From contig OZ287751.1 of NCBI GenBank assembly GCA_965649765.1, positions 7,378,001 through 7,442,000 on the forward strand: a DNA stretch of 64,000 bases, written 5' to 3'. The stretch comes from Bispira polyomma. Its lineage: Eukaryota. The notes under the pieces were generated by a model. It was not told the DNA's origin. It was given only the letters and a program-made list of their open reading frames with translations, and did no database searches. Made by a program: the position numbers and the translations under genes. Of this stretch, positions 56,546-57,128 are shown piece after piece (position 1 is the stretch's first letter; each line of letters begins with the position of its first letter).

Positions 56546-57081
56546 TTAACATTTTGTGTTGTGCTTTTAGCCTGGCTTATATGAGAACATTGTGAGTGAC
56601 ACTTGTAGATAACATTTTGTGTTGTTGTTGTGCTTTTAGCCTGCCTTATATGAGAACATTGTGAGTGACACTTGTAGGTAACATTTTGTGTTGTTGTTGT
56701 GCTTTCAGCCTGCCTTTCATGAGAACATTGTGAGTGACACTTGTAGGTAACATTTTGTGTTGTTGTTGTGCTTTTAGCCTGCCTTATATGAGAACATTGT
56801 GAGTGACACTTGTAGGTAACATTTTGTGTTGTTGTGCTTTCAGCCTGCCTTTCATGAGAACATTGTGAGTGACACTTGTAGGTAACATTTTGTGTTGTTG
56901 TTGTGCTTTTAGCCTGCCTTATATGAGAACATTGTGAGTGACACTTGTAGGTAACATTTTGTGTTGTTGTGCTTTCAGCCTGCCTTTCATGAGAACATTG
57001 TGAGTGACACTTGTAGGTAACATTTTGTGTTGTTGTTGTGCTTTTAGCCTGCCTTATATGAGAACATTGTGAGTGATACTT
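56546..57081 (+). repeat. Eight tandem copies of the EXOC2 3' splice site plus the first ~33 nt of the exon (66/69-bp units)
   Basis: AGs end at 56570, 56639, 56708, 56777, 56843, 56912, 56978 and 57047; only the last continues into the full exon. Confidence 0.95.
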
Positions 57082-57128
57082 TACAACAGCTACAAGAAGT
57101 GGTCCATGCCAAACCTGGGGAAATGCAG
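57048..57128 (+). CDS. EXOC2: EXOC2 exon (PALYENIVSDTLQQLQEVVHAKPGEMQ)
   Basis: cttttag|CCT ... CAG|gtatgt; 81 nt, phase 0 to 0. Resembles PCQFEQCIVCSLQSLKGVLECKPGEAS. Confidence 0.92.

What the first reader, a model, noticed from the sequence alone, without database searches (positions are those of the whole stretch)
56546..57128. Eight-acceptor array forming potential in-frame 21-nt microexon cassettes
Seen: periods are 69, 69, 69, 66, 69, 66, 69 (all multiples of 3). Units mostly alternate between ttttag|PALYENI and tttcag|PAFHENI, forming a 135-bp dimer. Each has TGC just before the AG, an internal ATT|gtgagt donor-like site after 21 nt, and most have a second TAG|gtaaca after 38 nt. Read-through of an upstream copy hits TAA after 13 codons. 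Inference: the spliceosome must skip seven near-identical acceptors by exon definition, or the copies act as 7-aa microexons or NMD-coupled poison acceptors. This could be a snapshot of microexon birth.
Basis: partly seen in the sequence, partly recalled or inferred. Interest (0 to 1): 0.7.

Follow-up and report, generated by a model that had tools for sequence, protein, structure and literature searches.

The report
Splice-acceptor "mirage" repeat in EXOC2
In an invertebrate's vesicle-tethering gene EXOC2, the end of an intron plus the first 33 bases of the next exon have been copied seven extra times in a row; this kind of repeat is already known from lancelets and humans and is likely just spliced out, although the first copy could act as a 21-base mini-exon.

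Summary
The array is real and as described. It sits in EXOC2/Sec5, ahead of an 81-nt exon (57048-57128) whose junction with donor 40685 is collinear with homologues. It matches the 'mirage' class: a minisatellite spanning an intron/exon boundary, described in amphioxus, with human parallels (CBS 844ins68, F7 VNTR). This scan has noted such arrays before, in this genome and in others.

The frame argument fails. The 66/69 difference is one TTG slip, every read-through hits a stop, and only 5 of 17 duplicated boundaries have spacings divisible by 3. Duplicated boundaries (17 of 130) are no commoner than at random AG/GT sites (329 of 2200). The 21-nt 'donor' is inherited coding sequence, also present in the real exon.

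Most likely the last AG is used by exon definition and any leak is removed by NMD; this is inferred, as no RNA was available. One lead remains. Copy 1 keeps a CTAAT branch motif, a 61-nt AG-free zone and a TGC, which is microexon-like, and the genome encodes an SRRM_C domain. I put about 8% on it being a real microexon.

The parts
40612..40685 (+). Upstream EXOC2 coding exon (74 nt), donor CTG|GTGAGG, phase 0
   Evidence: Sec5 PF15469, E=0.043; P0010 residues 595-621
40686..57047 (+). 16,362-nt intron whose 3' end holds the array
   Evidence: no residues missing between the two exons against P0010, P0011, P0013
56527..56531 (+). CTAAT branch-point-like motif (A at -41 from copy 1) in unduplicated intron; AG-free zone of 61 nt before copy 1
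56557..57081 (+). Mirage minisatellite: 66/69-bp unit (intron end + first ~33 exon bases + short junction), 7.7 copies, 135-bp A/B dimer
56571..56591 (+). Copy 1, 21-nt AG...GT segment (PGLYENI); best microexon candidate, untested
56640..56999 (+). Copies 2-7: decoy acceptors at 56640, 56709, 56778, 56844, 56913, 56979, each with donor-like sites at +21 and +38 and an in-frame TAA at codon 14
57048..57128 (+). Authentic 81-nt EXOC2 exon, donor CAG|GTATGT
   Evidence: P0010 residues 622-648
58370..58500 (+). Next EXOC2 exon (131 nt), with its own donor-side repeat

Best explanation
The array is a tandem repeat of the intron-end/exon-start junction of an EXOC2 exon (a 'mirage' minisatellite), and it is likely a tolerated by-product of local duplication that is spliced out whole. 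Shown: the unit is about 30 intron bases plus the first 33 exon bases; only the last copy runs on into the full exon and a strong donor; read-through from any other copy stops at codon 14. Inferred history: one short duplication across the acceptor, divergence of a B variant by three linked substitutions, then recent amplification as an A/B dimer with TTG slippage. Inferred mechanism: the spliceosome pairs donor 57128 with the nearest AG across the exon (exon definition, helped by the unique 48-nt 3' part of the exon), so 57048 is used. Occasional use of an upstream AG, most likely copy 7 (tttcag, 150-nt exon), would give a premature stop 108-516 nt before the next junction and would be cleared by NMD.
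For: Gene identity and collinear junction. The junction lies in a conserved T-x-L|P motif (T 39, L 41, P 41 of 46 sequences), and 44 of 46 have no indel over 20 residues. It is the first turn of helix 621-641 after a hairpin in the predicted model of homologue P0010. Boundary duplications are common here and show no selection signal: 8 of 39 EXOC2 boundaries and 9 of 91 CCT boundaries, pooled 17 of 130 against 329 of 2200 random YAG/GTR sites, Fisher p=0.61; spacing divisible by 3 in 5 of 17. All 3 substitutions within the 21-nt segments change the amino acid. Precedent: amphioxus mirages do not disturb the mRNA (PMC3087553, PMC3902484, passages); the CBS 68-bp junction duplication uses the distal site (PMC2630376, PMC1802585, passages); F7 pseudo-donors are functional but unused (PMC1557585, abstract and Discussion).
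Against: No RNA evidence of any kind. The authentic acceptor is not the best-looking one: B copies have CAG rather than TAG, and copy 1 holds the better branch motif and longer AG-free zone. Donors lacking G at -1 appear to be used in this genome (9 of 64 mapped, 8 of them GTRAGT), so the +21 site cannot be dismissed on strength. An in-frame GTRAGT in the first 45 exon bases is rare (2 of 66 acceptors, one being this exon), and this was the only one of 7 duplicated acceptors with such a site. The array has no GGG run, the element credited with distal choice in CBS. By TRF, 5 of 39 EXOC2 boundaries lie in arrays against 6.1% of the gene body, a possible twofold excess that I did not test for significance.
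Confidence: 0.8

Rival explanations
1. Copy 1 (56571-56591) is a real, probably neuronal, 21-nt microexon switched on by the eMIC domain of Srrm234. It would be spliced 40685 to 56571 and 56591 to 57048 (456-nt intron), adding seven residues at the start of a Sec5 helix.
For: Copy 1 has CTAAT at -44..-40, a 61-nt AG-free zone, TGC at -9 and pyrimidine fraction 0.71 (median 0.61). None of 66 mapped acceptors has the CTAAY + TGC + long-zone triple; singly 7, 16 and 10 of 66. These are features listed for eMIC-dependent exons (PMC8797185, passage). The genome has an SRRM_C match above cut-off inside an AG/GT-bounded exon. Copy 1 has lost the competing +38 donor.
Against: The triple was chosen after looking. 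These features would simply be those of the pre-duplication acceptor. The same donor is in the authentic exon. It lacks G at -1, and changes at -1 were detrimental for all exon types tested in bioRxiv 10.1101/2024.09.17.613571 (passage). No UCUC-rich tract. The insertion would fall at a conserved helix start; no homologue among 46 has a 7-residue insert there, though each cluster shows only one isoform.
Confidence: 0.08
2. The upstream acceptors act as regulated poison acceptors: a sizeable, controlled share of transcripts uses copy 7 or another copy and is destroyed by NMD, so repeat number tunes EXOC2 dose.
For: All seven read-throughs give a stop 108-516 nt upstream of the next junction. 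Copies 5-7 give exons of 285, 216 and 150 nt. B copies have the commoner CAG end (41 of 66 acceptors).
Against: A stop follows by chance from reading into intron sequence. No conservation evidence. Duplicated boundaries occur at background rate. The units are young and homogenised.
Confidence: 0.09
3. The array is an assembly artefact or much shorter in the animal.
For: No short-read contig spans the array; X1 may be the assembly's own source.
Against: Both ends and the unit junction are in DNA contigs, the junction variant at about 4 times flank depth in two samples. The units carry patterned substitutions that an assembler would not invent.
Confidence: 0.03

Closest known systems
Amphioxus 'mirage' minisatellites (Adh3, globins BflGb6/BflGb9, troponin C, PGBD5); PMC3087553 and PMC3902484, passages read
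   Same: Head-to-tail copies of an intron/exon boundary, splice signals kept, authentic exon intact, internal units homogenised while the border units differ. BflGb6 has the same acceptor-side geometry with 3-6 units.
   Different: Different animal (1.04-Gb genome, about 34% GC in this window; organism not identified) and gene. It has an A/B higher-order dimer and an in-frame GTGAGT 21 nt into each unit. Normal splicing was shown by RT-PCR there and is untested here.
Human CBS c.844_845ins68 (PMC2630376, PMC1802585, passages; Romano 2002 and Tsai 1996 known only through these)
   Same: A 68-bp duplication of an intron/exon acceptor junction; the distal site is used and the mRNA is normal.
   Different: One extra copy rather than seven. 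G runs between the sites promote distal choice there; this array has no GGG.
Human F7 intron 7 37-bp VNTR (PMC1557585, abstract and Discussion)
   Same: A minisatellite built from a splice junction, with 5-9 identical sites of which only the authentic one is used.
   Different: Donor side. It resembles the 48/50-bp array at 58469-58784 more than this one.
eMIC/SRRM3/4-dependent neural microexons (PMC8797185; bioRxiv 10.1101/2024.09.17.613571; passages)
   Same: Copy 1 is 21 nt, frame-preserving, with TGC, a CUAAY motif and a long AG-free zone.
   Different: Copies 2-7 lack the last two features. No inclusion, tissue specificity or conservation shown.

Membership tests
Mirage minisatellite | Tandem repeat whose unit spans an intron/exon boundary | tested here: met
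   boundary fixed by homology
Mirage minisatellite | Minisatellite-sized unit (10-160 bp in the described cases) | tested here: met
   66/69 bp; range from PMC3087553
Mirage minisatellite | Authentic exon intact at the array's edge, decoys keep AG/GT signals | tested here: met
   81-nt open exon; 7 of 7 decoys keep AG
Mirage minisatellite | Internal units homogenised, border units distinct | tested here: met
   Copies 2/4/6 and 3/5/7 are identical on the exon side; copy 1 and copy 8 have private changes
Mirage minisatellite | Length polymorphism between alleles or cells | tested here: inconclusive
   Contigs break inside the array; depth is no copy number
Mirage minisatellite | mRNA spliced normally | not testable with these tools
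   No run on record as RNA was listed
eMIC-dependent microexon | 3-27 nt (size range recalled), frame-preserving | tested here: met
   21 nt, phase 0
eMIC-dependent microexon | UGC between branch point and AG | tested here: met
   All copies; also in 16 of 66 ordinary acceptors
eMIC-dependent microexon | Long AG-exclusion zone and CUAAY branch point | tested here: inconclusive
   Met by copy 1 (61 nt, CTAAT); not met by copies 2-7 (28-31 nt, median of 66 acceptors 34.5)
eMIC-dependent microexon | Regulator present in the genome | tested here: met
   PF15230 SRRM_C, 28.7 bits against cut-off 27; that this family covers the eMIC region is recalled
eMIC-dependent microexon | Neural inclusion that depends on eMIC | not testable with these tools
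   No RNA
NMD-coupled poison acceptor | Stop more than 50-55 nt upstream of a later junction (rule recalled) | tested here: met
   108-516 nt
NMD-coupled poison acceptor | Regulated use and cross-species conservation | not testable with these tools
   No RNA; the genome has no relatives held
Intron gain from a mirage (model in PMC3087553, Fig. 7 legend) | An acceptor inside the original exon at the position matching the unit's donor | tested here: not met
   Exon positions +20/+21 read TT, not AG

The most novel reading that the evidence does not exclude
A mirage has given birth to a neuronal microexon. The first copy kept the native branch point and AG-free zone, gained a 21-nt length from a latent GTGAGT in the duplicated coding sequence, and is included under eMIC control, adding two helical turns to Sec5. 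Boundary duplication would then be a one-step route to new microexons.
Probability: 0.08. Interest if true: 0.65.

Novelty: new member of a known kind. Interest (0 to 1): 0.2.

Why it matters
As it most likely stands, it is one more mirage, with modest added value. A count in two gene sets shows that about one exon boundary in eight (17 of 130) has a nearby duplicate in this genome, at the background rate of local duplication. The A/B/A' variants also make it a convenient natural reporter for how a spliceosome chooses among near-identical acceptors. If copy 1 were included in neurons, it would be a direct case of microexon birth by boundary duplication; my searches listed no paper showing that.

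Tried and rejected
RNA evidence: no RNA holder listed; this says nothing about expression. The three runs laid all cover intron sequence and behave as DNA. The stretch laid did not include donor 40685, so joints from it were not examined. Bins without cover in X2/X3 (56478-56553, 56782-57009) are not interpreted; contigs that fit several copies are placed once.

Structure masking of decoys: rejected for lack of support; the region folds less stably than all 20 shuffles (z=+3.5). Rfam: one sub-threshold match outside the array (E=0.055), taken as chance.

Selection for frame: rejected (5 of 17). Preference of duplications for splice sites: not supported (EXOC2 alone p=0.14, CCT alone depleted p=0.059, pooled p=0.61). 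Chains of adjacent microexons: rejected on 45-48 nt introns. A 38-nt exon from the +38 donor shifts frame and stops.

Single-exon homology searches gave nothing useful. Alignment A2 was not used. The primary papers on Adh3 mirages and CBS were not held and are cited only through citing passages; no supplements were read. Splice-site scores use approximate recalled frequencies and served only to pick candidates. CCT boundaries are heuristic calls from 58 of the 73 Pfam matches (those in the 8 regions fetched). EXOC2 exons without a homology match were left out of the 39.

Full report
Observation. Eight acceptors start exon-side sequence at 56571, 56640, 56709, 56778, 56844, 56913, 56979 and 57048, with spacings 69,69,69,66,69,66,69. 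TRF reports period 69 x7.7 and a 135-bp dimer at 97%. The order is A', A, B, A, B, A, B, authentic A. B differs from A by three linked substitutions (TAG to CAG at the acceptor and two in the codons). Copy 1 has a private C-to-G change, a shorter TTG tract and no +38 donor. The 66/69 difference is one TTG. The genome search found the sequence at this locus only. DNA contigs match both ends exactly and show the unit junction at about four times flank depth in two samples. They cannot give a copy number, and run X1 may be the assembly's source.

Host gene. Pfam Sec5 (PF15469) matches nine places along C4:7285261-7443728, around and within the window. A named bat EXOC2 (P0004) and unnamed closer homologues map the exons. 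In P0010 the upstream exon ends at residue 621 and the 57048 exon begins at 622, so donor 40685 joins 57048 in phase 0 with nothing missing. I aligned 46 sequences: P0004 plus the 45 of the 150 listed representatives that lie in P0005-P0065 and have at least 600 residues. The junction falls in a conserved T-x-L|P motif (39, 41 and 41 of 46), and 44 of 46 have no indel across 20 residues. The two exceptions look like gene-model errors: a 10-residue read-through and a missing exon. In the AlphaFold2 model of P0010 (mean pLDDT 79.9; 85-96 locally) the junction is the first turn of helix 621-641, right after a hairpin.

What each decoy would do. Read-through from copies 1-7 to donor 57128 gives exons of 558 to 150 nt, each with TAA at codon 14, 516 to 108 nt before the junction. 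By the usual junction rule (recalled) these are NMD targets. Period length is therefore irrelevant to frame. The +21 site is the exon's own I-V-S codons, copied along. A 21-nt exon spliced to the adjacent copy needs a 45-48 nt intron, against a minimum of 284 nt among 53 mapped gaps, so only skips of two or more units are realistic. The +38 donor shifts frame.

Is it special in this genome? Of 39 mapped EXOC2 boundaries, 8 have a near copy within 1.2 kb. Spacings include 41, 94, 88, 48/50, 206 and 72, and one hit (+223) is borderline. In eight CCT-family genes, 9 of 91 heuristically called boundaries do. Random YAG or GTR sites in the same regions score 329 of 2200; pooled Fisher p=0.61, and 5 of 17 spacings are divisible by 3. 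The gene is rich in local repeats, and boundaries are hit about as often as anything else. One count points the other way: 5 of 39 boundaries lie in TRF arrays that cover 6.1% of the gene, a small and untested excess.

Mechanism. Shown: anatomy, stops, collinearity, background rate. Inferred: origin by a short tandem duplication and dimer amplification; choice of 57048 because only it is followed by the unique 48-nt exon part and the strong donor; NMD removal of leaks. Choice cannot rest on local acceptor quality, since B copies end in the commoner CAG (41 of 66 acceptors) and copy 1 has the best branch motif. RNA structure gives no help, and there is no G run of the kind credited in CBS.

Comparison with what is known. 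[quoted passage not shown] PMC3902484 (passage) adds PGBD5 and troponin C. Human CBS 844ins68 is a 68-bp single-copy version with distal-site use (PMC2630376, PMC1802585; passages). The F7 VNTR is the donor-side version (PMC1557585, abstract and Discussion). Four defining features of a mirage were met; length polymorphism was inconclusive and normal splicing untestable. Eight further scan notes describe such arrays in other genomes; I did not check them.

Residual lead. Copy 1, not the A/B alternation, is the best microexon candidate. It has CTAAT at -44..-40, a 61-nt AG-free zone, TGC at -9, an in-frame GTGAGT donor and a 456-nt downstream intron. None of 66 mapped acceptors shows that upstream triple, and such features mark eMIC-dependent exons (PMC8797185, passage). 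The genome has an SRRM_C exon, and donors without G at -1 appear to be used here (9 of 64). Against this: the triple was picked after the fact and would be inherited from the old acceptor. The donor has no exon-side match, all three substitutions in the 21-nt segments are non-synonymous, and the insert would sit at a conserved helix start. I put it at 8%.

Verdict. Real, a new member of a known kind, most likely silent. Interest 0.2; 0.65 if copy 1 proves to be an included microexon.

Noticed in passing
window 26586-26846: Acceptor of EXOC2 exon 26793-27004 duplicated twice (spacings 94, 95), AG kept, copies decaying.
   Followed up: partly
window 27677 and 27765: Donor of exon 27555-27676 has an exact 24-of-24 duplicate 88 nt downstream.
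   Followed up: partly
window 58469-58784: Donor-side mirage of exon 58370-58500: five extra donors at spacings 48, 50, 50, 48, 48.
   Followed up: partly
window 63160-63220: Degenerate copy of the end and donor of exon 62890-63006, 206 nt downstream.
   Followed up: partly
G000:C4:7284676-7284920, 7442699-7442902, 7446495-7446713: Three more boundary-derived arrays in EXOC2 outside the window (41-, 51- and 72-bp units); in the 41-bp one, 3 of 4 decoys have lost the AG.
   Followed up: partly
G000:C5:12590113 region, C2:81017892 region, C8:34531764 region: Mirages in CCT-family genes, including a 58-bp donor array of seven sites and a 149-bp acceptor triplicate with an internal donor-like site at +41.
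   Followed up: partly
G000:C4:7278481-7446800: EXOC2 spans about 168 kb, with a 72-kb gap between two mapped exons; possible small exons near 7318612 and 7325047 sit beside 63- and 72-bp repeats but have no homology support.
   Followed up: partly
window 40689-40859: Degenerate 17/21-nt repeat starting four bases into the intron, right behind donor 40685; it does not include exon sequence.
   Followed up: no
window 10347-12743: 24-bp minisatellite of about 100 copies inside an EXOC2 intron, giving long spurious open frames.
   Followed up: no
window 24800-25841 and 37032-38059: Arrays of a 142-bp unit that also occurs at C4:7268185; a dispersed satellite or element family.
   Followed up: no
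window 38263-39936: Open frames resembling fragments of a non-LTR retrotransposon (resemblance recalled, not searched).
   Followed up: no
L078:1501-1665 (G000:C8:35482011-35482175): Exon matching SRRM_C (PF15230), a likely Srrm234 eMIC-coding exon.
   Followed up: partly
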